From Halarcobacter sp. (GTDB lineage Bacteria; Campylobacterota; Campylobacteria; Campylobacterales; Arcobacteraceae): DNA of 64,000 bases. Numbering within the stretch: the first letter of the stretch is position 1; each line of letters begins with the position of its first letter. Of the stretch, positions 4,063 through 32,219 are shown one piece after another. The stretch spans positions 1,472,001 through 1,536,000 of the forward strand of contig CP182352.1 in assembly GCA_048571215.1 (NCBI GenBank), written 5' to 3'. Under the pieces are notes generated by a model. The model was not told where the DNA came from and searched no databases. It saw only the letters and a list, made by a program, of their open reading frames with translations. A program made the position numbers and the translations under genes.

Positions 4063-4072
4063 ACCTTTCTCC

Positions 4073-5800: not shown

Positions 5801-5810
5801 CTTTTACTCC

Positions 5811-8483
5811 TTAGGCTTTTAGTGGATTGATTTTTGTTGAATCAATATGATGTTTTTCCATAGCTTCAGCTAAAACTTTTTTATCTAATTTACCTTTTTT
5901 AACCAATTGTGATAAAGTTGTAAATACAATAAAGTCTGAATCAACTTCAAAGAAAGATCTTAAGTTTGCTCTTGAATCAGATCTACCAAAACCATCAGTA
6001 CCAAGTGCTTTAAATGAACCTTTTATGAAAGGTGCAATTTGCTCAGAGTAAGTTTTAATATAATCTGTTGCAGATACTATAATATTCTCTTCATCACTTC
6101 CTAATACTTGATCAACATAAGGTGTTTTATCTTCTAAATCGATATGTAAAAGATTATTTCTTTCAACATCTTGTGCTTCTCTTGCTAACTCATTATATGA
6201 AGTTACTGAATAAACTTCTGAAGATATTCCATAATCTTCTGCTAAAATTGAAGCTGCTTTTCTAACTTGTTCTAAGATTGAACCAGAACCAAGTAATTTA
6301 ACTTTATGATTCTCTTTTGCTTCAAGTGTATCTAATTTGTAAATACCTTTTATAATTCCTTCAACAGCACCTTCTGGCATTGCAGGTTGTTTGTAGTTTT
6401 CATTTAATGTAGTGATATAATAAAATACATTTTCTTGATTTTCACCATACATTCTTTCAATACCATTTTGAACTATAACTGCAACTTCATAACCATATGT
6501 TGGGTCATAAGTAACGCAGTTTGGAATTGTATTTGCTATAACATGTGAATGTCCATCTTCATGTTGTAAACCTTCACCATTAAGTGTAGTTCTACCAGAA
6601 GTACCACCAACTAGGAAACCTCTTGCCATTTGGTCACCTGCTGCCCAACACATATCACCTGTTCTTTGGAATCCAAACATTGAATAAAATACATAGAAAG
6701 GAATCATTGGACAATCATTGATTGAGTAAGAAGTTGCAGCTGCAACCCAAGAACCCATAGCACCAAGTTCATTAATACCCTCTTGTAAAACTTGTCCTTT
6801 TTTATCCTCTTTATAATATGCTACTTGGTCTCTATCTTGAGGAATATATTTTTGCCCCTCTGATGAGTAGATACCAACTTGTCTAAACATACCCTCCATA
6901 CCAAATGTTCTTGCTTCATCAGGAACAATTGGAACAATTCTTTTTCCAATTTTTTTATCTTTTACTAAAACATTTAAAACTCTTACAAATGCCATTGTTG
7001 TAGAAATCTCTCTATCTCCACTACCATTTGTTACTGCATCAAAAGCGCTTAATGCTGGTATCTCTAATTTTTCACTAAATTTTTGTCTTCTTTGAGGAAC
7101 AGAACCACCTAAATCAGCTCTTCTTTCCATCATATATTTGTACTCTTCAGAATCTTCTGCTGGTCTATAATAAGGGAATTTTTCAATATCTTCATCAGAA
7201 ATTGGGATACTAAATCTATCTCTAAATTGTCTAAGTGAAGCTAAATCAACTTTTTTAACACCATGAGCGATATTCATACCTTCAGCAGCTGCACCCATTC
7301 CATAACCTTTAACAGTCTTAGCTAAAATAACTGTTGGTTTATCTTTAGTCTCTTTTGCTTTTTTAAATGCAGAATAAACTTTTATAGGATCATGTCCACC
7401 TCTATTTAATCTCCAAATATCATCATCACTCATATTTTCAACTAATTTTGCAGTTTCTGGATACTTATTAAAGAAGTTTTCTCTTGTATAAGCTCCACCT
7501 TTTTGTTTAAAGTTTTGATATTCACCATCAACTGTTTCTTCCATTAGTTGAAGTAGTTTTCCTGATTTATCTTTTCTTAATAACTCATCCCATAATCTTC
7601 CCCAAATAACCTTTGTAACTTCCCAACCGTTACCTCTAAAGTTACCTTCAAGTTCTTGGATAATTTTTCCATTACCTCTAACTGGTCCATCTAGTCTTTG
7701 TAGGTTACAGTTGATAACAAATACTAAATTATCTAAACCTTCTCGTCCTGCTAGTCCTATTGCTCCTAAAGATTCTGGCTCATCACACTCACCATCTCCC
7801 ATAAAACAATAAACTGTTTGATTGCTACAATCTTTAATTCCTCTATCTGTTAAATATTTTAAAAATCTTGCTTGATAAATTGCTTGTATTGGTCCAAGTC
7901 CCATAGATACTGTTGGGAATTGCCAATAATCAGGCATAAGTTTTGGGTGTGGATAAGATGACAATCCATTCCCTTTTGATTCTTGTCTAAAGTTATCCAT
8001 TTGATCTTCTGATATTCTACCTTCAACAAAACTTCTAGCGTAGATACCAGGAGAGATATGTCCTTGGAAAAATACTAAATCTCCCCCATCTTTATCATTT
8101 GGAGCTTTAAAGAAGTGATTAAAACCTACATCATATAAAGTTGCTGATGATTGAAATGATGAGATATGTCCACCAAGTTCTAGACCTTTTTTAGATGCTC
8201 TTTGCACCATAATTTGAGCATTCCATCTAACTATAGATTTAATTCTTCTTTCGATATCTCTATTACCTGGCATTGCAGGTTGTTGTTCTACTGGAATTGT
8301 ATTTACATAAGCAGTAGTTGCATTATAAGGTAAGTATGCACCGTTTCTTCTTGCTTTATCAATTAACTTCTCTAACAAATAGTGAGCTCTTTGCGCTCCC
8401 TCTTCTTCTATAACAGCTTCTAAAGCCTCCATCCACTCTTGAGTTTCTGCTGGGTCAATATCATTTAAGTTTAAATGAGACAT
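5811..8483 (-). CDS. aceE: Pyruvate dehydrogenase E1, homodimeric type
   Basis: DIDPAETQEW N-terminus, GDGECDE TPP-binding motif, GEGLQHEDG; 890 aa. Confidence 0.97.
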   Translation of the reverse strand: MSHLNLNDIDPAETQEWMEALEAVIEEEGAQRAHYLLEKLIDKARRNGAYLPYNATTAYVNTIPVEQQPAMPGNRDIERRIKSIVRWNAQIMVQRASKKGLELGGHISSFQSSATLYDVGFNHFFKAPNDKDGGDLVFFQGHISPGIYARSFVEGRISEDQMDNFRQESKGNGLSSYPHPKLMPDYWQFPTVSMGLGPIQAIYQARFLKYLTDRGIKDCSNQTVYCFMGDGECDEPESLGAIGLAGREGLDNLVFVINCNLQRLDGPVRGNGKIIQELEGNFRGNGWEVTKVIWGRLWDELLRKDKSGKLLQLMEETVDGEYQNFKQKGGAYTRENFFNKYPETAKLVENMSDDDIWRLNRGGHDPIKVYSAFKKAKETKDKPTVILAKTVKGYGMGAAAEGMNIAHGVKKVDLASLRQFRDRFSIPISDEDIEKFPYYRPAEDSEEYKYMMERRADLGGSVPQRRQKFSEKLEIPALSAFDAVTNGSGDREISTTMAFVRVLNVLVKDKKIGKRIVPIVPDEARTFGMEGMFRQVGIYSSEGQKYIPQDRDQVAYYKEDKKGQVLQEGINELGAMGSWVAAATSYSINDCPMIPFYVFYSMFGFQRTGDMCWAAGDQMARGFLVGGTSGRTTLNGEGLQHEDGHSHVIANTIPNCVTYDPTYGYEVAVIVQNGIERMYGENQENVFYYITTLNENYKQPAMPEGAVEGIIKGIYKLDTLEAKENHKVKLLGSGSILEQVRKAASILAEDYGISSEVYSVTSYNELAREAQDVERNNLLHIDLEDKTPYVDQVLGSDEENIIVSATDYIKTYSEQIAPFIKGSFKALGTDGFGRSDSRANLRSFFEVDSDFIVFTTLSQLVKKGKLDKKVLAEAMEKHHIDSTKINPLKA

Positions 8484-8818
8484 TTATTATTCCTTGTAAA
8501 TATTTTTATCATTTTTACTAATTTGAAAGCCCTATTTAAAGGAGCATATGTCAATTATGTAAAAATTATGTAGCTATCCGAACGACTCTATCGAATTCTG
8601 GGCATATGATACTTTAAATCAATTTAAAATATTTTAAATTAAAAAATTAATTTTTTAACTTAAGCTTATTGTTTTAAAAATCATTTATAATGCACAAATA
8701 TAATCAAAAACTTCAACTTTTTAAGTTTTTTATAAGATTAATAGTAACATATTAAGATGAATTTATTATGATATTTTTATGTTAGTTTTAGTATTTATTT
8801 AAATTATCAGGGAGTAAA

Positions 8819-9559
8819 ATGTTAGAGTCAAAAAGTATCTTTAGAGTTATAATTACAACAAAAAAATCTGCAAAAGAAAATATGGCTATTGATGAAGCTT
8901 TATTAACATCTTTTGAAGAAGATGATTTGCCTATATTAAGACTCTATACATGGGAAGATTCCTTCACTATTGGGATTTCTCAAAATTTTGACAATTATGA
9001 TTTTACAAAAGAGTTTAATGGAAATTATGCAAAAAGAGTGACAGGTGGTGGTGTACTTTTTCATGGTCATGATTTATCATATTCACTTATAATTCCAACA
9101 AAAATTTTAAAAGACTTAAGTATTAAACAAAGCTATGAAAAGATATGTACTTTTATACTAAATTTTTATAAAAACTTAGGGTTAAATTGTACTTATGCAA
9201 AAGATGATGAGTCGATTAAGTTATCTAAAAATGAATATTGCCAAGTTGGTTTTGAAGCGTATGACATTTTGGCAAATTGTACAAAAATTGGTGGCAATGC
9301 TCAAAGAAGAACAAAAAAAGCAGTATTTCAGCATGGTTCAATTCCTGTGAAATGTACAAAAATTGAAAAACTTAAATCAGAGGTTGGTTCAAGTTTGGAA
9401 GATTTGGATATTTTTATAACTTTTGAAGAAGCAACACAAAAGCTAATTGAATCTTTTGAAAAAACTTTTAATGTTGAAGTAAAAAACTCCTCTTTAAGTA
9501 AAAAAGAGGAAGAAAAAATGAATTTATTATTAAAGGACAAATATGACTATGTCAACTAA
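8819..9559 (+). CDS. Lipoate-protein ligase / octanoyltransferase family protein (catalytic domain only)
   Basis: NMAIDEALL, RLYTW, RVTGGGVLFH, KIGGNAQ, QHGSI motifs; adjacent to lipA. Confidence 0.88.
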   Translation: MLESKSIFRVIITTKKSAKENMAIDEALLTSFEEDDLPILRLYTWEDSFTIGISQNFDNYDFTKEFNGNYAKRVTGGGVLFHGHDLSYSLIIPTKILKDLSIKQSYEKICTFILNFYKNLGLNCTYAKDDESIKLSKNEYCQVGFEAYDILANCTKIGGNAQRRTKKAVFQHGSIPVKCTKIEKLKSEVGSSLEDLDIFITFEEATQKLIESFEKTFNVEVKNSSLSKKEEEKMNLLLKDKYDYVN

Positions 9560-10424
9560 ACCACAATTTAAAAAACCAGAGTGGTTAAGAAAAAAACTAG
9601 TTCCAACTGCACAAAAAGAGATGGAACAACTTTTAGGAGATCATAAACTTCATACAATCTGTCAAGAAGCAAAATGTCCAAATATAAGTGAATGTTTTGC
9701 AAAGAAAAATGCAACTTTTTTAATTCTTGGAAATATCTGTACTAGAAGATGTACTTATTGTAATGTACATACAGGAAAACCTACAGAAGTTGATTTAGAT
9801 GAGATTGAAGGAGTTACAACTTCAGTTATTAGACTTGGACTTAAATTTGTTGTTATTACAAGTCCTGCAAGGGATGATTTAGCAGATGGTGGAGCAAAAC
9901 AATTCTACAGAGTTACAAAAAATATTTTAGAAAAATCACCTGGAACTCAAGTTGAGATTTTAATTCCTGATTTCAAAGCAGATGAAGAAGCTTTAAAAAC
10001 AGTTGTAAACAGTGGTGCTGAGATTATTGGACACAATGTTGAAACTGTACCTTCACTATACCATATCAGAAGAAATGCTTCATATAAAAGAAGTTTAGAG
10101 GTTTTACAAAAACTAAAAGAGATAGGTGGAGATAAGATTAAAACAAAATCAGCTTTAATGGTTGGACTTGGAGAAACCGAAGAGGAAATGGTTCAAGTAT
10201 TTAAAGACTTAGTTGCTGTTGGTTGTAAATTTTTAAGTATAGGACAATACCTAGCTCCATCAGGTGAATATGAAAAAGTAAAAGAGTATGTAAAACCTGA
10301 ACAATTTGAAAGATATAAAAAACTTGCACTTGACTTAGGATTTGAGTTTGTACACGCTACTCCATATGCTAGAAGTTCTTATTTAGCTCATGAATACTTA
10401 GGTCATAAAGAAGCTACTAAATAG
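9543..10424 (+). CDS. lipA: Lipoyl synthase
   Basis: CQEAKCPNISEC and CTRRCTYC cluster motifs, ARSSY motif; start may be 9549. Confidence 0.96.
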   Translation: MTMSTKPQFKKPEWLRKKLVPTAQKEMEQLLGDHKLHTICQEAKCPNISECFAKKNATFLILGNICTRRCTYCNVHTGKPTEVDLDEIEGVTTSVIRLGLKFVVITSPARDDLADGGAKQFYRVTKNILEKSPGTQVEILIPDFKADEEALKTVVNSGAEIIGHNVETVPSLYHIRRNASYKRSLEVLQKLKEIGGDKIKTKSALMVGLGETEEEMVQVFKDLVAVGCKFLSIGQYLAPSGEYEKVKEYVKPEQFERYKKLALDLGFEFVHATPYARSSYLAHEYLGHKEATK

Positions 10425-10459: not shown

Positions 10460-11188
10460 TTACATATATCCATTTACTAGTTTAAATATCTCTTGCCCAT
10501 ATTTATGTAAAACCTCCTCTTGAAGTCTTACAGATAGTCCAGAAATACCAACTGCTCCTACAAATCTATTTTGTTTATTGAAATATGGAACAGCTAAAGA
10601 TTTTAGTCCAAACTCATGTTCTTCACTCCCTATTGCATACCCTCTTTCCTTAACTAATTCTATCTCTTTTAAAAGTTTTGTTTTACTTGTGATTGTATTA
10701 CTTGTAAACTTTTTAAGTTCTAGGTTTTCAAAATCTACATTTTTACTAAATGCTAATAATATTTTTCCAAAACCATTTGTATGCAAAGGAGCATGTAGTC
10801 CTATAGAATCTCTTGTTTTTAATACTCTCTTTGATTTATCCACTTGATTTATATATAAAACAGAGTTATTATCAAATATTCCTATATATGCACACTCATT
10901 TGTTAAATAAAAAATCTCATCCAATAAGGCTTTTGTTTTTTCAACAATTTTTTGTATATCATCTTTTTGAACTATTTTTTTCATCAAATCACTAAGAACT
11001 ATCTCTTTACTATTATCCTTGTATTCAATAAAATCTTCATATATAAGTGTTGAAATAAGTCTTGACATTGTACTTTTATCTATCTCTAATCTATGACATA
11101 AAGTGTTTGCAGTCATAGGTTTTGTAGATATCATAACCTCTTTTAAAACTTGTAAACCTTTACTTAAGGATTTATTTTGATTTTGCAC
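10460..11188 (-). CDS. IclR family transcriptional regulator
   Basis: N-terminal HTH (KSTMSRLISTL); effector domain with PLHTNGFGKILLA and RGYA..EEHE motifs; GTG start. Confidence 0.92.
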   Translation of the reverse strand: MQNQNKSLSKGLQVLKEVMISTKPMTANTLCHRLEIDKSTMSRLISTLIYEDFIEYKDNSKEIVLSDLMKKIVQKDDIQKIVEKTKALLDEIFYLTNECAYIGIFDNNSVLYINQVDKSKRVLKTRDSIGLHAPLHTNGFGKILLAFSKNVDFENLELKKFTSNTITSKTKLLKEIELVKERGYAIGSEEHEFGLKSLAVPYFNKQNRFVGAVGISGLSVRLQEEVLHKYGQEIFKLVNGYM

Positions 11189-11289
11189 TTTTTAAAACTC
11201 TTTTTTTATTAAATTTGTTGAAATTATAGTCATATTCTACAAAAACTATACAATTTATCAAATTAAATAGGTTTTTTGTAAATTTTTTA

Positions 11290-11335
11290 TTTTATATGAT
11301 GAGATTATACAATAAATTTTTCTCACTATGTGAAA
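11290..11335. promoter_or_regulatory. Candidate IclR operators (two related 15-bp sites)
   Basis: Near-palindrome TCTCACTATGTGAAA (11321-11335) and an 11/15 match on the other strand (11290-11304) in the divergent intergenic region. Confidence 0.4.
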
Positions 11336-11522
11336 CTATCATATTCTCATTTTTATAAAGCCCTATTTTATGGTCTTCTTAGCCTTTATAAATTTAAACT
11401 TAAAAACAATTATCATATAAAAAAAATAGCTTCAGCTTATTTTTTATATGGATTAATTCTCCCATCAGAAAAATATATCTGAAATAAAATTTATTAAATA
11501 TAAAACAAAAAAGGTAATTATC

Positions 11523-12656
11523 ATGACTTCATCTTTCGTAGATTTATCAAAATTAACAGCAAATGATGATTTGAAACCAGTACTTGGTGGTAAATGGCCA
11601 GGTATACAAATTTATTATCCGCCAATTAAGTTCAATCCATTAGATGGAACATATGAAACTATGGAGCAAGCTAAGTATAGATTACAAAAACATGCCTATA
11701 AAACAAAAGCTCATACTGTTTTATTTGACCTTGAAGATGGTTGTAGAATGAAGGAGATGTCTAGAAAACTTCTTATTGAGGAATTACCAAAATTTCCCGA
11801 AAGAGATTTTCAAATAGCAATTAGGATTAATCCTTTTAGAACAGAAGAGTATGAACAAGATTTAAAAATGTTAAAACAAGTACACAAATATATTGATGCA
11901 ATTGTTTTAGCAAAAGCTGGGGAAGTTTATGGGGATGCTGAAATTAGAGACTTATCATCTTGGTTGGTTTCTATTGGTAGTAATTTACAAATTCAACCAA
12001 TTATTGAGCATCCAAAATCTTTACAAATTGCAGATAAACTAATGAGTCACTCAACAGTACAACATGTTGTATTTGGTATCCATGACTTTTCAAAAGCTAT
12101 GGCATATAAAATTACACCTGAGGGATGGATTGATGAATTGGAAACTTTCTTTAATATTCTTACTATGGAAGCAAGAATTAAAGGTAAAGGGGTTATTGGT
12201 GGAGTTGAAGTATTACTAACACCAAATTCATTACCAGATTCTTGTGTTGAGAAAAAAGATATTAGAAGATGGTTGGACTTACATGGAGATGATGCATCAA
12301 GACATGTATATGCCCATGCACAAAGAGAATATGCAATGGGACTTACTGGTAAACAAGTAATTACTCCAAACCATATAAATGTTTGTAAAGTTGCCTTTAC
12401 GCCAAGTCCAAATGAGATTAAAAGAGATATAAATATATTAAAAGCTGCAATTGAAACTGATGCTTTATTAAGTGGTGCTATTAGATATGAAGGTGAGATG
12501 TTAGACCCACCGATGTTTGGTAAATCTTTACAAAATATCTTAAGAGCAGGTGCTTTAAATAGTTTAAGTAAAGAAGATTATGAGTTTGCAGTAAAAGTAT
12601 TAAACAAAATGCCTTTACATACATTTAAAGAAAACTGGCCTTATGGTCAAATATAA
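11523..12656 (+). CDS. CitE/malyl-CoA lyase superfamily protein (HpcH/HpaI aldolase/citrate lyase family)
   Basis: FDLEDG, IRIN, IIEHP, FGIHDF, GKQVITP and GEMLDPP motifs. Confidence 0.82.
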   Translation: MTSSFVDLSKLTANDDLKPVLGGKWPGIQIYYPPIKFNPLDGTYETMEQAKYRLQKHAYKTKAHTVLFDLEDGCRMKEMSRKLLIEELPKFPERDFQIAIRINPFRTEEYEQDLKMLKQVHKYIDAIVLAKAGEVYGDAEIRDLSSWLVSIGSNLQIQPIIEHPKSLQIADKLMSHSTVQHVVFGIHDFSKAMAYKITPEGWIDELETFFNILTMEARIKGKGVIGGVEVLLTPNSLPDSCVEKKDIRRWLDLHGDDASRHVYAHAQREYAMGLTGKQVITPNHINVCKVAFTPSPNEIKRDINILKAAIETDALLSGAIRYEGEMLDPPMFGKSLQNILRAGALNSLSKEDYEFAVKVLNKMPLHTFKENWPYGQI

Positions 12657-12673
12657 TTGGGGAGTTATTAATT

Positions 12674-15193
12674 ATGAGTTCAAATTTAAAAATTGAAGTA
12701 CCAGAATTTCTAAATATTGGTGTAGCTTGTACATCAAGTCATTTAGGTACATCTAAAGAGAATAGCACAGCTATGATAATTGAAGATGACAAACTTGGTA
12801 CTGATGAAATTACATATAAAGATTTAGCAACTAAATCAGACCAAGTTTGTAACTTCCTTATAAGTATTGGAATCAAACCAAGAGATAGGGTTTTAGTTTG
12901 TTTAAAAAACTCTTTAGCTTACCCTATTTCATTTTTTGGAAGTATCAAAGCTGGGATTACAGCAGTTCCAACCTCTACACTTTTAAGTGGTTCAGAAGTT
13001 AAATATTTAGCTGAGGATTCACAAGCAAGTGCTATAGTATTATCAGCTTCTATGTATGAGAATTTAGTTCCATATTTAGAAAATGTAGATAATCTAAAAA
13101 CAATTATAGTTGCTGCAATTGACAGTGTAGAAAACCTTAAAAAACCAAAGGGTATAAATGTATATGCATTAAATGATATTTTGGCAAATGCAGATACAAC
13201 ACCTAATCATTATAATTCAAAAGCTGGTGAACCTGCATATTTGGTATATACATCTGGAACTACTGGTTATCCAAAAGGAGTTTTACACTCTCATAGATCA
13301 CTAATAGGTAGAACTCCTGCGACTGAGTATTGGTTTAACTTTAAAGAAAATGATAGAATCATGCATTCTGGGAAGTTTAACTGGACATATGTTTTAGGTT
13401 CTGCACTTATGGATCCATTATTTAATGGTCACACAGTAATCGCTTATGAGGGGGCAAATGATGCTTCAACATGGATTAACTTAATAAAAAAACATAAGTG
13501 TACTATCTTTATTGGAGTACCTACAATCTATAGACAAATCATCCAAAAAACAGATTTTACAATAGATGATTGTCCAAGTTTAAGATACTGCATGAGTGCT
13601 GGAGAACATTTATCAGATGAGATGATTGGTTTATGGAAAGAAAGATTCAACCAAGATATTTTTGAAGCAATTGGGATGAGTGAATGTTCTTATTATATTT
13701 CCCACTCAATCAATAATCCAATCAGACCAGGAAGTGCAGGATTTGTTCAACCAGGTCATACTGTAAAACTTTTAGACCCTAATACTTTACAAGAAGTAGG
13801 TGTTGAAGAGGAAGGTATGATATGTATAGGTATGGATGATCCAGGACTATTTTTAGAGTATTGGCAGTTAGAAGAGGAAACAACAAAAGCAAAACATGAT
13901 GGATACTTCTTTACAGGGGATTATGCTAAAAAAGATAAAGATGGTTATATCTGGTTTATTGGTAGAAAAGATGATATTATCAACACTTTTGGATTTAGAG
14001 TTTCGCCACATGAGATTGAAAGAGTTGTTAAAACCCATGAAGATATTGCAGATTGTGTTGCCTTTGGTTTAGAAATAGAAAAAGATAAAACTATAGTAGC
14101 AATTGCTGTTATAGGTCATGAAAAATTAAGTCAAGAGAAACAAGATGAAATCTTAGCATTTTCACAAGCTAATTTAGCAAAATATAAAGCACCAAAGACA
14201 ATTTTTGCTTTAGATGATTATCCTAGAACAAAAAACGGGAAAGTTTTAAGAAAACAACTTGTAAAACAATTACATGAACAATACCATGCAAAACAAAGTG
14301 GTGAAGAGATTATTGAGTATAAAGCTAGAAGATCAATGTTATTTGTTCCTTCATACAATAAAAGATATGTGCAAAAAGCAAAAAATATACTTGCCGATAC
14401 TGTTGTGTTTGATTTAGAAGCGATTTTACAAGAGCAAAAAGAGATAGCAAGAGGTGTTATAAAAGAGGTATTTAAAGAAAATAACTCTAAGTTTGGAGAA
14501 AGTGAAAGAGTTTTAAGAGTTAACTTTATTGAAAGTGATGATTTCAATAAAGATATACAACTAGCTTCAGAACTTGAACTAGATGGTATTTTATTTTCAC
14601 AAATCGAAACAGTAGAACAAATTTTGGAAGCTGAAAGAGTTATCAATGAGTTAAACCCAAATCTAACTATGATGGTTATGATTGAGACCCCTTTAGCTAT
14701 TTTGAATTCACCTGATATTTGTTCATCATCTAAAAAACTTGAGGTTGTAGTTGTTGGTTCAAATAACTTAGCAAATAGGCTTCAAATTGATATAAAAAGA
14801 GGTTCAAAAGCGATGTTTAATTACCTTGCTCGTATTGCCCTATCTGCAAAAGCATATGGTAAAACTGTTATTGATGGACCACACTATGATGTACATGATG
14901 AGTTTGCTTGTGAAGATTCGACAAAAGATGCTTTTAACTTAGGATTTGATGGTAAAGCCTTAATCCATCCAGTACAAGTTGAATATATCAATGATATCTT
15001 TACTCCAAAACAAAAAGAGGTTCAAGAGTATGAAGAGATGATTTCTAAATATGAAGATGCAATAAAAGATGGTAAAGAGGTTATTTTATATAAAGACAAA
15101 CTTGTTGATAAATGTAGAATTGTTTGGGCTAAAAAGATGATAACTCTTTATGAAACATATAAGTCTTTAGGTCAAAACCTATTTAATAAATAA
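12674..15193 (+). CDS. AMP-forming acyl-CoA ligase fused to a C-terminal CitE-like domain
   Basis: YTSGTTGYPKG, GMSE, TGD, GRKDD and PRTKNGK adenylation motifs; from ~14327 RRSMLFVP, RVLRVN, MIETP, GFDGKALIHP. Confidence 0.88.
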   Translation: MSSNLKIEVPEFLNIGVACTSSHLGTSKENSTAMIIEDDKLGTDEITYKDLATKSDQVCNFLISIGIKPRDRVLVCLKNSLAYPISFFGSIKAGITAVPTSTLLSGSEVKYLAEDSQASAIVLSASMYENLVPYLENVDNLKTIIVAAIDSVENLKKPKGINVYALNDILANADTTPNHYNSKAGEPAYLVYTSGTTGYPKGVLHSHRSLIGRTPATEYWFNFKENDRIMHSGKFNWTYVLGSALMDPLFNGHTVIAYEGANDASTWINLIKKHKCTIFIGVPTIYRQIIQKTDFTIDDCPSLRYCMSAGEHLSDEMIGLWKERFNQDIFEAIGMSECSYYISHSINNPIRPGSAGFVQPGHTVKLLDPNTLQEVGVEEEGMICIGMDDPGLFLEYWQLEEETTKAKHDGYFFTGDYAKKDKDGYIWFIGRKDDIINTFGFRVSPHEIERVVKTHEDIADCVAFGLEIEKDKTIVAIAVIGHEKLSQEKQDEILAFSQANLAKYKAPKTIFALDDYPRTKNGKVLRKQLVKQLHEQYHAKQSGEEIIEYKARRSMLFVPSYNKRYVQKAKNILADTVVFDLEAILQEQKEIARGVIKEVFKENNSKFGESERVLRVNFIESDDFNKDIQLASELELDGILFSQIETVEQILEAERVINELNPNLTMMVMIETPLAILNSPDICSSSKKLEVVVVGSNNLANRLQIDIKRGSKAMFNYLARIALSAKAYGKTVIDGPHYDVHDEFACEDSTKDAFNLGFDGKALIHPVQVEYINDIFTPKQKEVQEYEEMISKYEDAIKDGKEVILYKDKLVDKCRIVWAKKMITLYETYKSLGQNLFNK

Positions 15194-15202
15194 GGAAGAA
15201 AA

Positions 15203-16273
15203 ATGTCTACAATAAATACAAAGATAAATATGGGGAATTTTTTTGAAGACTTTTCAATGGGTCAAAAAATAATCCACCCTCTTCCTAGAACTATTAGTAA
15301 TGGAGATGTATCTTTATATATTGCCTTTACTGGTTCTAGATTTGCCCTACACTCTTCTGATGTGATAGCAAATCAACTAGGATATACTCAAAGACCAATA
15401 GATGATGTTTTGATGTTTCATCTAACTTTTGGGAAATCAGTACAAGATATCTCTTTAAATGCTATTGCAAATTTAGGATATGCGGAGATTAGTTTTCCAA
15501 ACCCTGTTTTTGTAGGTGATACAGTTTCTATGACTTCAACAGTTATAGGGCTAAAAGAGAATTCAAATGGAAAAAGTGGAGTTGTTTATGTACACTCTAT
15601 TGGAACCAACCAAGATAATAAAGAGGTATTAAACTTCAAAAGATGGGTTATGGTTCATAAAAAGGATAAAGAGACTTTAACCGGTATCAAAGAGATTCCT
15701 CAATTTAAAGAAGCAACACCTATAGTTGAAGATATTAATATCCCAACTATAACAACAGTAGATACAGATGCAACTGGCGGTGAGTATTTCTTTGAGGATT
15801 ATGAAACAGGGGAAAGATTAAACCATCCAGAGGGTATTACAATTGATGACAGTGACCATACACTAGCAACAAAGTTATACCAAAACAATGCAAAGGTACA
15901 TTTTAATGACCATATGATGAAATCAACTCCAATGGGTCAAAGACTTATGTATGGAGGGATTATAATCTCAATGGCTAGAGCTATTTCATTTAATGGCTTA
16001 CAAAATGCCCAATGGATCTATGCAATAAATAGTGGAGTACATGCAAATCCAAGCTATGCAGGAGATACTATCTACGCATATACAGAAGTTATAGATACTA
16101 TTGATTTAAAAAGAGATGATATTGGTTTATTAAGACTAAGAACAGTTGCAATTAAAAACCAAAAAAGTGATGAGATAAGTTCACCAAAAGGTGAAGATGG
16201 TAAGTACTTAAAAAATGTAGTACTTGATTTAGATTACACAGTTGTAATCCCAAAAAGAAATACAAAAAAATAA
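15203..16273 (+). CDS. mch: Double-MaoC hydratase, mesaconyl-C1-CoA hydratase (beta-methylmalyl-CoA dehydratase) like
   Basis: GNFFEDF, FHLTFGKSVQDISLNAIANLGYAE, VIGLKENSNGKSGVVYV, RWVMV recall Mch of the ethylmalonyl-CoA pathway and 3-HP bicycle; second FFEDY domain. Confidence 0.8.
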   Translation: MSTINTKINMGNFFEDFSMGQKIIHPLPRTISNGDVSLYIAFTGSRFALHSSDVIANQLGYTQRPIDDVLMFHLTFGKSVQDISLNAIANLGYAEISFPNPVFVGDTVSMTSTVIGLKENSNGKSGVVYVHSIGTNQDNKEVLNFKRWVMVHKKDKETLTGIKEIPQFKEATPIVEDINIPTITTVDTDATGGEYFFEDYETGERLNHPEGITIDDSDHTLATKLYQNNAKVHFNDHMMKSTPMGQRLMYGGIIISMARAISFNGLQNAQWIYAINSGVHANPSYAGDTIYAYTEVIDTIDLKRDDIGLLRLRTVAIKNQKSDEISSPKGEDGKYLKNVVLDLDYTVVIPKRNTKK

Positions 16274-16393
16274 CTAATTTAAGATAAGAGGTAAACACTG
16301 CCTCCTTTAGGTTTTCTCGAAAAGAGTTTAACAACAAGCTACTTTTAGCAATTTTTTATAAATTGCGTTAAAAAGTAGATAAAGAATATAAAA

Positions 16394-16416
16394 GGTTCCC
16401 CTTCAAATGGGGAACC
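16394..16416 (+). promoter_or_regulatory. GC-rich stem-loop just upstream of the RBS of the fourth cluster gene
   Basis: GGTTCCCC-ttcaaat-GGGGAACC perfect 8-bp stem, 6 nt before AAGGAG. Confidence 0.55.
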
Positions 16417-16434
16417 AATTTTAAGGAGAAAAAA

Positions 16435-17418
16435 ATGACACACCCAAACAAAGCACTATTTGAATCAGGAAAATCTTTACCGATTATTCCAACTTGTGAA
16501 CACTTTGCAGGAAGCGAAAAGCTAATCCTAAAAGGTTTTGAGATGCAAAAAAAATTAGGACCAGTATTTGATATTACTTGTGACTGTGAAGATGGAGCAG
16601 AAACTGGTAAAGAGGTTGAGCATGCTGAAATGATTGTAAGAGTTGTAAACTCTGAAGCAAATCCATATGGGATGGCAGGAACTAGAATCCATGACTTCTC
16701 TCATCCAGATTGGAGACAAGATGTTGATATACTTGTACCTGGTGCTGGAGAAAAGCTAGCATATATTACACTACCTAAATCTACTTCTTATGAAGAAGCA
16801 AAAACTCAAATTGAATATATTCAAGAGGTAGCAAAAAAAGCTGGTATAAAAAGAGAGATTCCTATTCATATCTTAATTGAAACCCATGGTGCATTACAAG
16901 ATGTAGAAAAAACTGCAACATTACCTTGGCTTCAAGTATTAGATTTTGGTTTAATGGACTTTGTATCGGGATATCAAGGGGCGATTCCTGCAATTAACAT
17001 GAGAAGTCCTGGTCAATTTGATCATAGATTAATAGCAGCTGCAAAAGCAAAAGTTTGTCAAGCAGCTATCCAAAACCATGTTATACCTTGTCACAATGTA
17101 ACTTTAGATTTAAAAAACCCATACCAAACATATAAAGATGCTGAACGAGCAAGAAATGAGTTTGGATTTATGAGAATGTGGTCAATTTATCCAACCCAAG
17201 TTCAAGCAATAGTTGATGCTATGAAACCAGACTTTACAGAGTTAGAAGCTGCACAAAATATTTTAATAGCAGCACAAGATGCTGAGTGGGGACCTATTCA
17301 ATATGATGGTGAATTACACGATAGAGCAACATATAGATACTTTTGGGAATTAGTTCAAAGAGCTAAATACTCAGGAGCAAAACTTCAAGATATAGTTGAA
17401 GAAAGATTTTTTGCTTAA
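16435..17418 (+). CDS. CitE-like CoA ester lyase (HpcH/HpaI aldolase/citrate lyase family)
   Basis: CDCEDGA, TRIHD, LIETHGA, FGLMDF, WSIYP, GELHDRA motifs. Confidence 0.85.
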   Translation: MTHPNKALFESGKSLPIIPTCEHFAGSEKLILKGFEMQKKLGPVFDITCDCEDGAETGKEVEHAEMIVRVVNSEANPYGMAGTRIHDFSHPDWRQDVDILVPGAGEKLAYITLPKSTSYEEAKTQIEYIQEVAKKAGIKREIPIHILIETHGALQDVEKTATLPWLQVLDFGLMDFVSGYQGAIPAINMRSPGQFDHRLIAAAKAKVCQAAIQNHVIPCHNVTLDLKNPYQTYKDAERARNEFGFMRMWSIYPTQVQAIVDAMKPDFTELEAAQNILIAAQDAEWGPIQYDGELHDRATYRYFWELVQRAKYSGAKLQDIVEERFFA

Positions 17419-17705: not shown

Positions 17706-18548
17706 ATGAATAGATATAATATTAACCAAGAAGAGTTAAAGGATTATTTAGGGTTTGGTGTTGCAGGTAATTTTGCGAATCACTTAGGTGAAGCTGGAGA
17801 AGCAGATGAATTCTCTGTAATTGAAACAAAAGAAAAAGATGCACCAAAAGGATTATTCCCCTTTTATATACCAAATCATGACACCTTTTTAGGTCAATAC
17901 CCTATTTCAACGGACAAAATAAATCATAATGATATTGAACATTTGCAAGTTGAAGCAGAAGTTGCATTAATATGTGATTTTGAGTATAAAGGTGAAAAAT
18001 TAATAGATATAAAACCAAAATATTTTGGTGCTTTTAATGACTGTTCAAATAGAATCCAAGATGGAAATAAACTAAGTACAAAGAAAAACTGGGGAGAATC
18101 ATCAAAGGGGATATCACCAGATTTTATAAAAATAGATAGTTTTGAAGAAGATGGTATCTTAAGTCAATTTCATATAGCATCTTTTATTAGAAGAGATGGT
18201 ATCTTAAGAGATTATGGAACTGTAAGTGCTGTTAAATCATACTCTTATTTTTTTAAAGAGTTAAAAGATTGGATGATAGAAAAATTTAATACCCAAGAGG
18301 ATATGGGACCATTAGAAGAGTTACCACCTTTTATGAAAAATATAAAAGAGCACAAAGGTTTGTTAATAGCAGCAGGTGCAACAGCATATACAGAGTTTGG
18401 TAAAACAAACTATTTAAAAAAAGGAGATGAGATATTTGTATATGTTTATAATGCTCATTTTCACTCTTTTGATGATATTATGAATGATATGTCTGGTATG
18501 GATTTACACTTATCTCAATGTAGTAAATTACATCAAATAGTTGAGTAA
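17706..18548 (+). CDS. DUF5718-type protein with fumarylacetoacetate-hydrolase-like motifs
   Basis: GVAGNFANH, QVEAEVAL, FNDCSNR, KKNW resemble FAH superfamily GxNYxxH / ExE / NDxSxR / K motifs. Confidence 0.7.
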   Translation: MNRYNINQEELKDYLGFGVAGNFANHLGEAGEADEFSVIETKEKDAPKGLFPFYIPNHDTFLGQYPISTDKINHNDIEHLQVEAEVALICDFEYKGEKLIDIKPKYFGAFNDCSNRIQDGNKLSTKKNWGESSKGISPDFIKIDSFEEDGILSQFHIASFIRRDGILRDYGTVSAVKSYSYFFKELKDWMIEKFNTQEDMGPLEELPPFMKNIKEHKGLLIAAGATAYTEFGKTNYLKKGDEIFVYVYNAHFHSFDDIMNDMSGMDLHLSQCSKLHQIVE

Positions 18549-18693
18549 GAACTTTTTAGTTCTTACTTAAACTTGCCTACTAATAAATACTAAAATCTTA
18601 ATATTATCTCTATTATTTAAAACATATAAGAAATTATAATTTGTAATCATTTTATGATAAAATATAATATTGAGGAAAATTAAGGAGTGTCTT

Positions 18694-21099
18694 ATGGAAA
18701 AATCAAAAAACAATAGTTTTGGAAATAAACTGCTAATAAGAATACTAGGTGCTACTACTATAGTATTTATTATTACTATTTTCTTTATCTCAAAATATTC
18801 TTATGAAACAGCAGAGTCTGGTGCAGAAACATATGTAAAAGAGATGGCAAGTAACTACGCCTCACAAATAAAAGGAGATATTGATCTTTCTATATCAATT
18901 GTTAAGACACTTAAATCTGAATTTCAAGAAGCTATAAATCATAATAAAAAGCTTGATGAAAAAGAAACTATCGCAATGTTAAAATCTGTATTAAGAGACA
19001 ATGACCAACTTTTAGGTTTATGGTGGTCACTAAAAAACCCTAGTCTCTTATATGATTTAAAATCTAATGAAAACAATCTTCCAGATAATTGGTATGCAAA
19101 AAGTGGTGAGTTTTCTCCTTATGTAACAAGGGGTAAAGATGGTATTATTGTTCAAAAAGGTTCTGATTATAATGAAGAAAATAGTTGGATAAAAGGTCCT
19201 AAGGAAGCTGGCAAAGAGTTTATTACTAAACCCTATGTTTTTTCTATTGCTGGAATTGAGACACTTATGACAACTGTTGCCATCCCACTTTATAAAGATG
19301 GTGAATATGTAGGAGTTATTGGGGCGGAAATAGCTCTTGATACCTTTTCTAAATTAGCAAAATCAATAAAAGTATATGATAATGGATATGCTTTTATTGT
19401 TGATAGCTATGATGTTATTTTAGGTCATCCTAAAGAAAATTTTGTAGCAAAGAATTTACTTGAAATTACAAAAAATGATAGTGACTATAAAACTGCACTT
19501 GATAGTATTTCTAAAAATAAAGATTATCTTTTTACAAAAAAGTCAATTGAAAATAATTTAGAATCTTTATACTATGCAAAACCATTTACTATAAAAGGTG
19601 CTGATGTAAATTGGGCAATTTTTGTTAATGCTCCAATTGAAGAATATCTTTCTTTAGCAATCTTTGTAAGAAATTTCTCTATTGTAGCTGCGTTTCTTGG
19701 AATCTTTATAATTGGTGTAATAATTTTTTTAAGTGTAAAAGAATTAAAATCAAATCTAAATCTGATCACTAATGGTTTAAAATCTTTTTTCCAATACTTA
19801 AATAAAGAATCAAATACTACAGAACAGATTCAATTAGTTTCAAATGATGAGTTTGGACAAATGGCAAAAAATATCAATAATAATATTGTAAAAATCTCAA
19901 AAAGCATAAATGAAGACAATCTGCTAATTGAAGATGTAAAAAGAATTGTTAATCAAGTTAGTAGTGGTTACTTAGAAAATAGAATCGAAAAAGACACTTC
20001 TACAGACTCATTAAATGAATTGAAAAACCTATTAAATAATATGCTTAACAACTTAGAGTCTTTAGTTGGTAAAGATATCAATAAAATAAGTGAAGTTCTT
20101 AGCAGGTACACAAAAAGAGATTTCAAAGCTAAACTTGATAAAGATACGTCTGGTAAAATTGGTTCAGAATTAATTGAGATGAATAAAATGATGACTCAAA
20201 TGCTTCAAGATAGCCAAAGGGATGGAAACAACCTGCAAAAAAGTTCAAATGAATTAACTCAAAATGTTGGAACATTAAGTAAAAATGCAACTTCACAAGC
20301 TGCATCATTAGAAGAAACTGCTGCATCAATTGATGAGATTACAGGTAATATTCAACAAACAAGTGTAAAAGCACAAGAGATGTTAAGCATTTCAAATGAG
20401 ACTAAAGAGTCTGCACAAACTGGTAAAAACTTAGCAAATGATACAGTTCAAGCTATGGATGAGATAAATGAAACAGTTATTAATATTAATGAAGCTATTT
20501 CAGTAATCGACCAAATTGCATTCCAAACAAATATTCTATCACTTAATGCAGCAGTTGAAGCTGCAACTGCAGGTGAAGCTGGAAAAGGGTTTGCAGTTGT
20601 TGCACAAGAGGTTAGAAACCTTGCAAGTAGAAGTGCAGAAGCAGCAAAAGAGATTAAAGACTTAGTTGAAAATGCAACTACAAGAGCAAATAATGGTAAA
20701 GTGATTAGTACTAAGATGATTGAAGGTTTTAGTTCACTTGAAGAGAAAATCTCAAGCACAAATAATCTAATTGATGATGTATCAAATGCTGCAAAAGAAC
20801 AAAATTTGGGTATGACTCAAATTGCAGATGCAATGAATCAATTAGATAAGTTTACTCAAGAAAATGCTGCTATAGCTGACCAAACAAATGATATTGCAAA
20901 AGTAACAAATAATATTGCTATTGAAGTTGTTAAAAATGTTGATAGAAATGATTTTGATGGTAAAAACCTACAAATTGATATATCAAATCAGAAAAAAGAA
21001 AAAACAACTCACTTAAATGAGAATAAAAAAGTTAAAGCACCAACTAAAACAATATATTCTCAAAAGAAAGAAGAAAAAGATGAATGGGAAAGCTTTTAG
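18694..21099 (+). CDS. Methyl-accepting chemotaxis protein with dCache sensor
   Basis: Two TM segments, ITKPY Cache motif, [17 protein letters not shown] hairpin tip, C-terminal EWESF pentapeptide; AAGGAG RBS favours ATG at 18694 over TTG at 18670. Confidence 0.93.
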
Positions 21100-30728: not shown

Positions 30729-32219
30729 ATGGCTAAAATTACAGAACAAGATATTATTGATAGTATAGCTGATGCATGTCAGTTTATTTCATTTTACCAC
30801 CCAGAAGATTTCGTAAAAGGGATGGTAGAAGCTTATGAAAATGAAAAAAGTGAATCTGCAAAAAATGCGATTGGACAAATATTAATCAACTCAAAAATGT
30901 GTGCAATGGGTCACAGACCATTATGTCAAGATACAGGAAGTGTAAATATTTTTGTAAAAGTTGGACTAAATGCAAACTTAGATATTAAAAAAGAATTAGT
31001 AGATTTATTAAATGAAGGTGTAGCTAAAGGATATACAGATCCAGATAACACATTAAGATATTCTGTTGTTTCAGATCCAGCAGGGGCTAGAACAAATACA
31101 AAAAACAATACACCAGCTGTTATTCATGTAACAGTAGATAACTCAGATGAGTTAGATATTACAGTTGCAGCAAAAGGTGGAGGAAGTGAAAATAAATCTA
31201 AATTTGCTGTATTAAATCCAAGTGACAGTGTATATGACTGGGTTATGGAAAATGTTAGACAAATGGGTGCAGGATGGTGTCCTCCAGGAATACTGGGTAT
31301 TGGTATTGGTGGAAATCCAGAAAAAGCTATGCTTTTAGCAAAAGAGTCTTTAATGGGTCATGTTGATATCCATGAACTTCAAGCAAGAGGACCACAAAAT
31401 GCTTTAGAAGAGCTAAGACTTAAACTATATGAAGATATCAATAAAATTGGTATTGGAGCACAAGGGCTTGGTGGTTTAACTACAGTTGTTGATGTTAAAA
31501 TCTTAGATTATCCATGTCATGCGGCATCACTTCCTGTTGCTATGATTCCAAACTGTGCTGCTACTAGACATATTCACTTTAAATTAAAAGGTGATGGACC
31601 AGCAAAATTTGATAAACCAGATTTAGACCTTTGGCCAGATATTGAACTTCCAATGGATACAATCAAAAAAGTAAATATTGAAGATTTAACAAAAGAGAAC
31701 CTATCTCAATTTAAATCGGGTGATACTTTATTATTATCAGGAAAAATTTTAACAGCAAGGGATGCAGCTCATAAAAAAATCGTTGAGTATAAAAATGCTG
31801 GTAAACCACTTCCAAATGGAGTTGATTTAAAAGATAGATTTATCTACTACGTTGGACCAGTTGATCCAGTAAGAGATGAAAAAGTAGGACCTGCTGGACC
31901 AACTACATCTACAAGAATGGATAAATTTACAAAAGATATGATGGAAATAGGTATTATGGGTATGATTGGTAAAGCTGAAAGAAAGCAACCAACTATTGAT
32001 TTAATCAAAGAGTATAAATCAATGTACCTAATTGCAACTGGTGGTGCTGCTTATTTAATTTCACAATCTATTAAAGATGCAAAAGTATTGGCATTTGAAG
32101 AGATGGGGATGGAAGCTATTTATGAGTTTGAAGTGAAAGATATGCCTGTAACTGTTGCAGTTGATACAGAAGGTACTTCTATTCATACAACAGGTCCTGC
32201 AAAATGGAGAACTATCTAA
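30729..32219 (+). CDS. Class I (Fe-S) fumarate hydratase
   Basis: PLCQDTG, KGGGSEN, GWCPP, NCAATRH, ARDAAH, GPTTSTRM motifs. Confidence 0.93.
   Translation: MAKITEQDIIDSIADACQFISFYHPEDFVKGMVEAYENEKSESAKNAIGQILINSKMCAMGHRPLCQDTGSVNIFVKVGLNANLDIKKELVDLLNEGVAKGYTDPDNTLRYSVVSDPAGARTNTKNNTPAVIHVTVDNSDELDITVAAKGGGSENKSKFAVLNPSDSVYDWVMENVRQMGAGWCPPGILGIGIGGNPEKAMLLAKESLMGHVDIHELQARGPQNALEELRLKLYEDINKIGIGAQGLGGLTTVVDVKILDYPCHAASLPVAMIPNCAATRHIHFKLKGDGPAKFDKPDLDLWPDIELPMDTIKKVNIEDLTKENLSQFKSGDTLLLSGKILTARDAAHKKIVEYKNAGKPLPNGVDLKDRFIYYVGPVDPVRDEKVGPAGPTTSTRMDKFTKDMMEIGIMGMIGKAERKQPTIDLIKEYKSMYLIATGGAAYLISQSIKDAKVLAFEEMGMEAIYEFEVKDMPVTVAVDTEGTSIHTTGPAKWRTI

What the first reader, a model, noticed from the sequence alone, without database searches (positions are those of the whole stretch)
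10460..17418. IclR-linked Mch + three CitE-fold genes + CoA ligase: candidate undescribed C5-dicarboxylate / glyoxylate pathway
Seen: a regulator divergent from four co-oriented genes encoding three different CitE-superfamily domains, an AMP-forming CoA ligase and an Mch-like hydratase. Known: Mch and malyl-/beta-methylmalyl-CoA lyase interconvert mesaconyl-C1-CoA with propionyl-CoA + glyoxylate in the ethylmalonyl-CoA pathway, the 3-hydroxypropionate bicycle and the methylaspartate cycle. None of the usual partners (ccr, ecm, mcd, mct, meh, CoA transferase) lies in this window, and an ATP-dependent ligase is not a standard member of those modules. Inference: a stand-alone route that either activates mesaconate/methylmalate and cleaves it (glyoxylate then fixed via malyl-CoA), or condenses propionyl-CoA with glyoxylate. 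It sits directly beside the acetyl-CoA-producing PDH locus.
Basis: partly seen in the sequence, partly recalled or inferred. Interest (0 to 1): 0.78.

Follow-up and report, generated by a model that had tools for sequence, protein, structure and literature searches.

The report
Candidate citramalate-cycle genes for acetate use
This conserved gene cluster, noticed in Arcobacter in 2007 but apparently never tested, probably lets bacteria that lack the usual glyoxylate shunt build cell material from acetate by way of five-carbon acids, and so offers genes for a pathway that was proposed decades ago and never proven.

Summary
The scan found it before in other genomes. Best reading (0.55): a ligase-driven citramalate cycle. 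Support: 0 of 21 carrier genomes have isocitrate lyase or Ccr, and 21 of 21 have a propionyl-CoA sink. In one gammaproteobacterial order the marker (7 of 151) never overlaps ICL (78 of 151). 23 of 25 Arcobacteraceae without pyruvate synthase carry it. Two sub-modules recur (CitE-A/ligase/fumarase; CitE-B/Mch/CitE-D), in operons with prpBCD or beside acsA. The fused CitE-B lacks its Mg-binding Asp (0 of 87), so it may be dead. A palindromic operator tracks IclR. Against: no enzyme assayed, this genome has two pyruvate synthases, and one A. butzleri strain reportedly does not grow on acetate.

The parts
10460..11188 (-). IclR-family regulator, probably the local regulator of the operon
   Evidence: PF09339 + PF01614; below the cut-off of every named IclR equivalog; present in 63 of 110 loci
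11321..11336 (.). Imperfect palindrome TCTCAC-TAT-GTGAAAC, candidate IclR operator (inferred)
   Evidence: Conserved in 59 distinct IclR-A intergenic regions. Best PWM site in the genome (33.8 vs next 18.7). Score >=20 in 34 of 38 IclR-bearing loci and <=14 in 37 of 37 IclR-less loci; the matrix was trained on IclR loci, so only the IclR-less half is a free test. One match in the window against 0.05 expected.
11447..11457 (+). Second conserved upstream box (TATGGATTAAT), possible promoter element; function unknown
   Evidence: Its 10-mers occur in 40 of 59 intergenic regions
11523..12656 (+). CitE-A (= AB1917): distinct CitE-superfamily enzyme with the full catalytic set D69/E71/D72, R101, E162, D188, D328; proposed citramalate-forming entry enzyme (inferred)
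   Evidence: Residues invariant in 160-166 of 166 rows; own clade; TIM-barrel fold at 16-20% identity to MCL/CLYBL/Ccl; travels with the ligase and fumarase
12674..14293 (+). AMP-forming acyl-CoA ligase domain (N-terminal part of the AB1918 orthologue); proposed mesaconate-CoA ligase (inferred)
   Evidence: PF00501/PF13193; below cut-off for all 25 listed NCBIfam ligases; nearest solved relatives E ~1e-52 to 1e-55 with other substrates
14318..15193 (+). CitE-B domain fused to the ligase; intact fold but Mg-ligand Asp replaced (N698 here, mostly Lys elsewhere) and one acid of the DxED motif lost: probable pseudo-enzyme in Campylobacterota
   Evidence: Mg-Asp in 0 of 87 fusion-type rows and 9 of 12 stand-alone rows; those nine have Glu at the lid position. 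Alignment to 5UGR and 5VXC fixes the position. Model pLDDT 90, TM 0.84 to MCL/CLYBL.
15203..16273 (+). Mesaconyl-C1-CoA hydratase-type enzyme (Mch; = AB1919)
   Evidence: PF19315; 4E3E E 3e-110, 8HGN E 3e-103
16435..17418 (+). CitE-D (= AB1920), orthologue-level match to uncharacterised 3QQW/3R4I; full catalytic set; proposed methylmalyl-CoA lyase and/or malate-forming enzyme (inferred)
   Evidence: 3QQW E 2e-139; residues invariant in 93 of 93 rows; directly after Mch in 104 of 112 loci; with Mch + CoA transferase on a Sphingobium plasmid
17706..18548 (+). DUF5718 protein, conserved downstream neighbour in Arcobacteraceae; role unknown, may not belong to the pathway
   Evidence: PF18985; 80 of 110 loci; not seen in the gamma/betaproteobacterial loci L102-104, L109, L115 or L142-243
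30729..32219 (+). Class I (Fe-S) fumarase (= AB1921 orthologue), proposed mesaconase; detached from the operon here and next to fumC (32374-33768)
   Evidence: Only PF05681 gene in the genome; NCBIfam; within two genes after CitE-D in 31 of 97 related loci and downstream of CitE-A in 25 of 28 metagenome loci

Best explanation
The operon encodes the core of an isocitrate-lyase-independent route that turns acetyl-CoA into C4 acids: a citramalate cycle driven by an ATP ligase. (1) A CitE enzyme, most likely A, condenses acetyl-CoA with pyruvate and hydrolyses the thioester to (S)-citramalate; the hydrolysis pulls an otherwise unfavourable condensation. (2) Class I fumarase dehydrates it to mesaconate. 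(3) The AMP-forming ligase re-activates it to mesaconyl-C1-CoA, which explains why a ligase is needed. (4) Mch hydrates it to beta-methylmalyl-CoA. (5) A CitE lyase, most likely D, splits this to glyoxylate + propionyl-CoA. (6) Glyoxylate + acetyl-CoA give malate (D, or B where B is intact). (7) Propionyl-CoA returns to pyruvate through the methylcitrate cycle (prpB-prpC-acnD-prpF at C1:114-121 kb), or through methylmalonyl-CoA mutase in some Chromatiales. Net: 2 acetyl-CoA + ATP -> malate + AMP + PPi + QH2 + NADH. Shown: genes, folds, catalytic residues, linkage and distribution. Known for the families: steps 2, 4, 5 and 7. Inferred: every substrate assignment, the direction, and which CitE does which step.
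For: Gene content. 0 of 21 carrier genomes from two phyla have ICL of either type or Ccr above cut-off. 21 of 21 have a propionyl-CoA sink: a PrpB-type gene in 14 and full-length mutase in 8, one genome having both. All 30 Mch-positive genomes among 61 relatives have a PrpB-like gene and none has ICL. Exclusion. In the order of G061, A is in 7 of 151 and ICL in 78 of 151 with no overlap (Fisher p 0.005, overstated because kin are not independent). In the family, 23 of 25 genomes without pyruvate synthase carry A against 72 of 105 with it; in genus g12 the 2 carriers are exactly the 2 of 18 without it. Linkage. Gammaproteobacterial loci place B-Mch-D in one run with prpB-prpC-prpD, divergent from GntR, malic enzyme, (sdh), A, ligase, (fumA) (L231, L234, L204, L207, L209). 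In 80 metagenome loci the ligase follows A in 39 of 49, fumA lies downstream in 25 of 28 and acetate-CoA ligase is divergently adjacent in 36 of 46 with enough flank (related taxa). Literature. Class I but not class II fumarases convert (S)-citramalate and mesaconate (PMC4682846, passages). [quoted passage not shown] In OM43 an adjacent HpcH/ligase pair rises about tenfold in the treatment that raises the prp genes (PMC5120137, section 11 and table rows; orthology inferred from names and order only). A. butzleri hDNRA1 needs acetate for biomass carbon (PMC12286921, passages and section 17).
Against: No activity, mutant or flux data exist in what I could search. This genome has two pyruvate:ferredoxin oxidoreductases and SucC, so it does not need the route when oxygen is low, and 72 of 95 family carriers also have PFOR. 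Miller et al. state that RM4018 does not grow on acetate ('data not shown') and propose the opposite use. At class level the exclusion is not significant (0 of 6 against 112 of 394, p 0.19). A and D carry His187 and Met174 where malyl-CoA lyases have the Ala thought to admit propionyl-CoA (PMC3832036), so the step-5 enzyme is unsettled; CLYBL has Glu there yet was crystallised with propionyl-CoA, so the rule is not absolute. Citramalyl-CoA formation is unfavourable unless hydrolysed and thioesterase activity cannot be read from sequence. Class I fumarases need anoxic handling for full activity, which weakens the idea of an aerobic replacement for PFOR. Here the fumarase is 13 kb away and no operator was found at prp or fumA. 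10 of 49 metagenome loci lack the ligase next to A. Two PFOR-negative genomes lack A. Obligate methylotrophs keep the cluster, so growth on acetate cannot be its only use.
Confidence: 0.55

Rival explanations
1. Catabolism of an external C5 acid (mesaconate, citramalate, methylmalate). The ligase activates it, Mch and a lyase give propionyl-CoA + glyoxylate, and the methylcitrate cycle and a malate synthase reaction finish the job. Same back half as the best reading, with no synthesis from acetyl-CoA.
For: Explains the ligase, Mch, fumarase, the prp link and the need for a propionyl-CoA sink equally well. A CoA transferase-Mch-D unit without A sits among catabolic genes on a Sphingobium plasmid. 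A dCache chemoreceptor is a frequent neighbour (39 of 110 loci).
Against: No conserved transporter among the common neighbours. Carriage by 95 of 130 family genomes, including 36 of 36 in one genus, is high for a rare substrate. It does not predict exclusion with ICL or PFOR, adjacency to acsA, or a dedicated third enzyme (A) tied to ligase and fumarase. The genome has glutamate mutase genes but no methylaspartate ammonia-lyase hit, so glutamate is not an evident source.
Confidence: 0.2
2. Glyoxylate-consuming direction (Miller 2007; the reader's second option). Glyoxylate + propionyl-CoA -> methylmalyl-CoA -> mesaconyl-CoA -> mesaconate -> citramalate -> citramalyl-CoA -> pyruvate + acetyl-CoA, with the ligase activating citramalate or malate.
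For: Lyases and Mch are reversible and citramalyl-CoA cleavage is the favoured direction; resembles the second half of the 3-HP bicycle; fits the reported lack of growth of RM4018 on acetate.
Against: It would compete with the methylcitrate cycle for propionyl-CoA, yet the two share a gene run in several genomes. It needs steady sources of both glyoxylate and propionyl-CoA. This genome handles allantoin-derived glyoxylate with a separate malate synthase G.
Confidence: 0.1
3. Mainly an oxidative cycle or carbon-overflow route. The same reactions plus malic enzyme and PDH burn acetyl-CoA to CO2 without 2-oxoglutarate dehydrogenase or succinyl-CoA synthetase.
For: Malic enzyme lies inside the cluster in methylotroph-type loci; OM43 and other Methylophilaceae lack 2-oxoglutarate dehydrogenase (PMC5120137, PMC4109929). 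SucC was not found in 5 carriers among 61 relatives (G026, G027, G028, G030, G034) nor reported in RM4018.
Against: This genome and most of its genus have SucC and an oxoglutarate oxidoreductase; malic enzyme is unlinked here. It is a use of the same chemistry, not a different pathway.
Confidence: 0.08
4. Metabolite repair or detoxification: the enzymes clear side products such as malyl-CoA, mesaconate or citramalate, as CLYBL does.
For: D occurs alone in the Burkholderia TCA operon (L243); CLYBL is a malyl-CoA repair thioesterase (bioRxiv 10.1101/2024.09.25.614871, passages).
Against: Five linked genes, an ATP-consuming step, a dedicated regulator and exclusion with ICL are more than repair needs. 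It may hold for D alone.
Confidence: 0.07

Closest known systems
Arcobacter (Aliarcobacter) butzleri RM4018 cluster ab1917-ab1921 (Miller et al. 2007, PMC2147049; section 9 read)
   Same: Same genes and order: CitE, ligase-CitE fusion, hydratase, CitE, class I fumarase. Same enzyme list proposed by homology, including mesaconyl-CoA synthetase. Match made from the paper's description and from Aliarcobacter loci, not from the RM4018 sequence itself.
   Different: Here IclR and an operator sit upstream and the fumarase is detached. Miller proposed flux towards acetyl-CoA + pyruvate and reported no assay of these enzymes; the degenerate CitE domain and the distribution outside Arcobacter were not noted in that section.
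Methylophilaceae 'methylcitric acid cycle' gene cluster (PMC4109929, PMC3728764, PMC5120137; passages and one section)
   Same: Three citrate-lyase-like genes, MaoC hydratase, an acyl-CoA ligase called prpE and fumarase clustered with prpBCD; role stated as unknown.
   Different: There ligase and B are separate genes, the regulator is GntR, and prp, sdh and malic enzyme are in the cluster; the papers read it as propionate oxidation.
Citramalate cycle (Ivanovsky, Krasilnikova and Berg 1997, seen through PMC8307300 and PMC4682846)
   Same: Same proposed sequence citramalate -> mesaconate -> mesaconyl-CoA -> methylmalyl-CoA -> glyoxylate + propionyl-CoA; mutase-bearing carriers would close it the same way.
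   Different: Proposed for Rhodospirillum rubrum and 'still needs to be proven'; drawn with a CoA transferase and closed by propionyl-CoA carboxylation. Here an ATP ligase and, in Campylobacterota, the methylcitrate cycle take those places.
Methylaspartate cycle and ethylmalonyl-CoA pathway
   Same: Share Mch, methylmalyl-CoA cleavage and malate formation from glyoxylate.
   Different: They reach mesaconyl-CoA from glutamate (mutase + ammonia-lyase + CoA transferase) or crotonyl-CoA (Ccr, Ecm, Mcd); those entry enzymes were not found here.

Membership tests
CitE superfamily, active enzyme (A and D) | TIM barrel with Arg, two Mg ligands (Glu, Asp), DxED acids and lid Asp (PMC3832036) | tested here: met
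   All invariant: 160-166 of 166 rows for A, 93 of 93 for D; fold
CitE superfamily, active enzyme (fused B) | Mg-ligand Asp and water-binding Glu-Asp pair | tested here: not met
   Asp in 0 of 87 fusion-type rows; motif reads DLEA
Malyl-/beta-methylmalyl-CoA lyase (Mcl1, MCL-C) | Clusters with MCL sequences; Ala before the Mg-Asp | tested here: not met
   Only weak matches to 4L9Y/5UGR/4L7Z (E 1e-6 to 1e-11 for A and D); His and Met at that position; far below the NF041626 cut-off
Malyl-CoA thioesterase (Mcl2) for B | Glu instead of Asp in the lid (PMC3832036) | tested here: inconclusive
   Glu in 9 of 12 stand-alone B, Asp in 87 of 87 fusion-type B; no Mcl2 sequence was available for a tree; closer likeness to Mcl2 is recalled only
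Itaconate degradation (Ict-Ich-Ccl / RipABC) | CoA transferase, Ich and Ccl above family cut-offs | tested here: not met
   NF038241 and NF038242 far below cut-off; no family III CoA transferase; family I transferases not searched
Mesaconyl-C1-CoA hydratase | Double hot-dog MC_hydratase, close to characterised Mch | tested here: met
   PF19315 above cut-off; 4E3E and 8HGN over full length
Ethylmalonyl-CoA pathway | Ccr and ethylmalonyl-CoA mutase in the genome | tested here: not met
   TIGR01751 76 bits against cut-off 378; no PF01642; Mcd not searched
3-hydroxypropionate bicycle | Mct (family III transferase), Meh, malonyl-CoA reductase | tested here: not met
   No PF02515; no mutase; Meh and Mcr not searched
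Methylaspartate cycle | Glutamate mutase plus methylaspartate ammonia-lyase plus mesaconate CoA transferase | tested here: not met
   Mutase genes present at C1:1361879-1364859; no tblastn hit to E. coli Mal at E<=1e-3 while GlmE hit at 6e-85; no family III transferase
Citramalate cycle | No ICL or Ccr; mesaconase, Mch, lyase and a propionyl-CoA-to-pyruvate route encoded | tested here: met
Citramalate cycle | Measured citramalate synthase and mesaconate-activating activities and flux from acetate | not testable with these tools
   Needs enzyme assays and 13C tracing

The most novel reading that the evidence does not exclude
The module is the genetic basis of a real, widespread acetyl-CoA assimilation route distinct from the glyoxylate, ethylmalonyl-CoA and methylaspartate cycles: a citramalate-methylcitrate cycle with a new (S)-citramalate synthase of the CitE fold and a mesaconate-CoA ligase. 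It would be used by Arcobacteraceae, Sulfurospirillum, some Chromatiales and Burkholderiales, and, with malic enzyme, would give Methylophilaceae a way to oxidise acetyl-CoA without 2-oxoglutarate dehydrogenase.
Probability: 0.4. Interest if true: 0.85.

Novelty: new variant of a known kind. Interest (0 to 1): 0.56.

Why it matters
If right, it supplies genes and tractable hosts for the citramalate cycle, proposed in 1997 and described as unproven. It would explain how ICL- and Ccr-negative Arcobacteraceae build biomass from acetate, especially those without pyruvate synthase. It would also account for the highly expressed but unexplained methylcitrate cluster of Methylotenera and OM43. It predicts two activities I found no report of in the searched library (a CitE-fold (S)-citramalate synthase and a mesaconate-CoA ligase), both of use for C5-dicarboxylate engineering, and gives a marker gene (CitE-A) for metabolic reconstruction. 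The cluster itself is not new, and five earlier notes of this scan concern it.

Tried and rejected
Complex prediction of A with B: no answer (score 0.02), used neither for nor against. RNA contigs: a run from a close strain (X1) covers the operon and one contig bridges Mch and D, but it also covers 29 of 30 bins, so it shows neither expression level nor one transcript; the second run's small share was not used. 'Broken TCA cycle bypass' for this genome: rejected, SucC is present. Malate synthase G as partner: it lies in an allantoin/urease cluster and is treated as unrelated. Methylaspartate route: rejected for lack of Mal. Shared regulon with prp or fumA: no operator found. PDH adjacency as evidence: limited to 25 of 110 loci. 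Sigma-70 promoter scan: fewer sites than shuffles. Fold and Atlas searches placed A and B in the CitE fold without a close characterised relative. DUF5718: no solved relative, only a low-score FAH-hydrolase lead. The tree is a quick tree without characterised reference sequences; it shows only that A, B and D are separate clades and that fused B has a long branch. A has no match in plasmids. The first ORF clustering of GC-rich loci was confused by shadow ORFs and was replaced by tblastn. The Arcobacter peruensis paper was not held. The one supplement file of PMC12286921 gave no hits; supplements of the other papers were not opened and may hold expression data for these genes.


Full report
Observation. 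The five ORFs and their domains are as described. I call the CitE domains A (11523-12656), B (C-terminal part of the ligase fusion) and D (16435-17418). The hydratase is a close relative of solved Mch. D is close to two uncharacterised structures, 3QQW and 3R4I. A and B have only distant solved relatives. The genome is 3.61 Mb, one contig, 100% complete; the nearest named relatives are Arcobacteraceae.

Prior description. Section 9 of the A. butzleri RM4018 genome paper (PMC2147049) describes ab1917-ab1921 as two CitE proteins, a ligase-CitE fusion, a hydratase and a class I fumarase. It proposes a route between glyoxylate + propionyl-CoA and pyruvate + acetyl-CoA and reports no assay of these enzymes. 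A lead from earlier scan notes pointed to Methylophilaceae. [quoted passage not shown] Ten searches of the library returned no biochemical study of these genes; most subscription journals are not covered.

Distribution and gene order. A has at least 564 relatives among GTDB species genomes. It is in 95 of 130 family genomes; Mch was found in 30 of 37 family genomes and 0 of 24 single representatives of other families of the order, although Sulfurospirillum loci carry the operon. The four-gene order is intact in 98 of 109 loci, with some genomes counted twice. Class I fumarase follows D within two genes in 31 of 97 loci; here it is 13 kb downstream, beside fumC. Outside Campylobacterota the module is rarer: 6 of 400 genomes of a class sample and 7 of 151 of one order. 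There the ligase and B are mostly separate genes and two sub-modules appear. A-ligase-fumA: ligase after A in 39 of 49, fumA downstream in 25 of 28, acsA divergent in 36 of 46 metagenome loci with enough flank, out of 80 loci of mostly related taxa. B-Mch-D: B directly before Mch in 113 of 114 loci and D directly after in 104 of 112. In L231, L234, L204, L207 and L209, B-Mch-D runs into the prp genes, and the divergent strand carries GntR, malic enzyme, sdh in some, A, ligase and fumA in some.

Genome context. This genome has no isocitrate lyase; the only PF00463 match is PrpB. It has no Ccr above cut-off, no methylmalonyl-CoA mutase and no family III CoA transferase. It has prpB-prpC-acnD-prpF (PrpC scores below its equivalog cut-off but sits in the operon), malate synthase G in an allantoin cluster, two pyruvate synthases, SucC and malic enzyme. 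Glutamate mutase genes are present, but no methylaspartate ammonia-lyase was found. Over 21 carriers (9 Campylobacterota, 12 Gammaproteobacteria; completeness of the latter not shown by the tool): ICL 0, Pseudomonas-type ICL 0, Ccr 0 above cut-off, and a propionyl-CoA sink in all 21. Five Chromatiales carriers have only a below-cut-off PrpB-like gene and are counted by their mutase. In the order sample the 7 carriers avoid the 78 ICL genomes; in the class sample 6 avoid 112, which is not significant. In the family, 23 of 25 genomes without a pyruvate synthase match at E<=1e-64 carry A; five were rechecked without the threshold and showed only oxoglutarate-oxidoreductase-level or faint matches. 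Kinship inflates all these tests; 17 of the 23 are one genus.

Catalytic anatomy. PMC3832036 (passages) names the conserved residues. A and D keep all of them in every row. B does not: the Mg-binding Asp is absent from all 87 fusion-type rows and from 3 of 12 stand-alone rows, and the other 9 have Asp plus a lid Glu, the mark the paper gives for malyl-CoA thioesterases. B is also the least conserved part among Campylobacterota loci (mean 70% identity to the window against 80-90% for the others), yet its fold is intact. I read fused B as a probable pseudo-enzyme descended from a thioesterase-like protein. A different metal-binding scheme, with the frequent Lys in place of the metal, is not excluded. 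A and D have bulky residues (His, Met) where MCLs have Ala, which argues against propionyl-CoA binding and leaves the cleavage step unassigned. D still looks the best candidate: it pairs with Mch without A or B on a Sphingobium plasmid, and CLYBL breaks the Ala rule.

Regulation. A palindrome at 11321-11336 is conserved between IclR and A, is the best site in the genome, and is missing upstream of A in all 37 loci without IclR. This supports the IclR link. No site was found at prp or fumA.

Mechanism. The parts fit the citramalate cycle as summarised in PMC8307300, with an ATP ligase in place of a CoA transferase and the methylcitrate cycle in place of propionyl-CoA carboxylation. The reactions sum to 2 acetyl-CoA + ATP -> malate, the glyoxylate-cycle result at the cost of two phosphoanhydride bonds. 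Hydrolysis at the citramalate step would pull an unfavourable condensation and make re-activation by a ligase necessary. Class I fumarases have mesaconase activity. Published physiology is mixed: RM4018 is said not to grow on acetate, while A. butzleri hDNRA1 depends on acetate for biomass carbon (I did not check its genome). In OM43 an adjacent HpcH/ligase pair rises with the prp genes (orthology inferred). All substrate assignments remain inference.

Verdict. A real, conserved, previously noted but untested central-metabolic module. Best reading 0.55; external C5 catabolism 0.2; the rest lower. Interest 0.56: not a new cluster, but it makes an old open question directly testable.

Noticed in passing
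G000:C1:947730 (L250:2731), upstream of L250:2791-3390: Second good match to the symmetric operator (22.6 against 24.0 for the main site; next 17.8), upstream of a DJ-1/PfpI-family gene. Could tie glyoxal/methylglyoxal handling to this IclR; conservation not checked.
   Followed up: partly
window 16394-16416: GC-rich 8-bp hairpin just upstream of the ribosome-binding site of CitE-D, in the 161-bp gap after Mch; possible mRNA-stabilising or attenuating element.
   Followed up: no
window 2284-10424: PDH locus with aceE, aceF and a third gene starting with a lipoyl domain, plus divergent lipoate ligase and lipoyl synthase genes.
   Followed up: no
window 34488-51298 (-): 4978-aa exoprotein with no Pfam family above cut-off next to a ShlB/FhaC-type transporter: a two-partner secretion system, probably an adhesin.
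   Followed up: partly
G000:C1:1361879-1366448 (L255): Glutamate mutase S, E and L genes followed by an AMP-forming ligase, with no methylaspartate ammonia-lyase found in the genome; purpose unclear.
   Followed up: partly
G000:C1:3082253-3091151 (L252): Allantoinase PuuE, allantoicase, ureidoglycolate lyase, malate synthase G and urease-like genes in one cluster.
   Followed up: partly
G025, G031, G032, G036: The four family genomes lacking both Mch and PrpB show 450-475-aa secondary matches to the SucC model like ATP-citrate lyase subunits, suggesting rTCA autotrophs; no Mch-positive genome shows such a match. Not confirmed with a dedicated model.
   Followed up: partly
L244 (G553:C1:1046000-1065000); also G549, G577: In mutase-bearing carriers a below-cut-off PrpB-like gene lies 3-4 kb from methylmalonyl-CoA mutase; in L244 beside carboxylase-like and acyl-CoA ligase genes. 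It may be an oxaloacetate decarboxylase, which the citramalate cycle scheme needs.
   Followed up: partly
L243 (Burkholderia arboris record): CitE-D orthologue alone inside the acn-prpD-GntR-sdh-citrate synthase gene cluster, without A, B or Mch.
   Followed up: partly
window 18670-21099; L152:12977-13741: A dCache chemoreceptor is near the operon in 39 of 110 loci; a TIGR00645 membrane protein lies between ligase and fumA in many betaproteobacterial-type loci. Either might sense or move a pathway acid.
   Followed up: no
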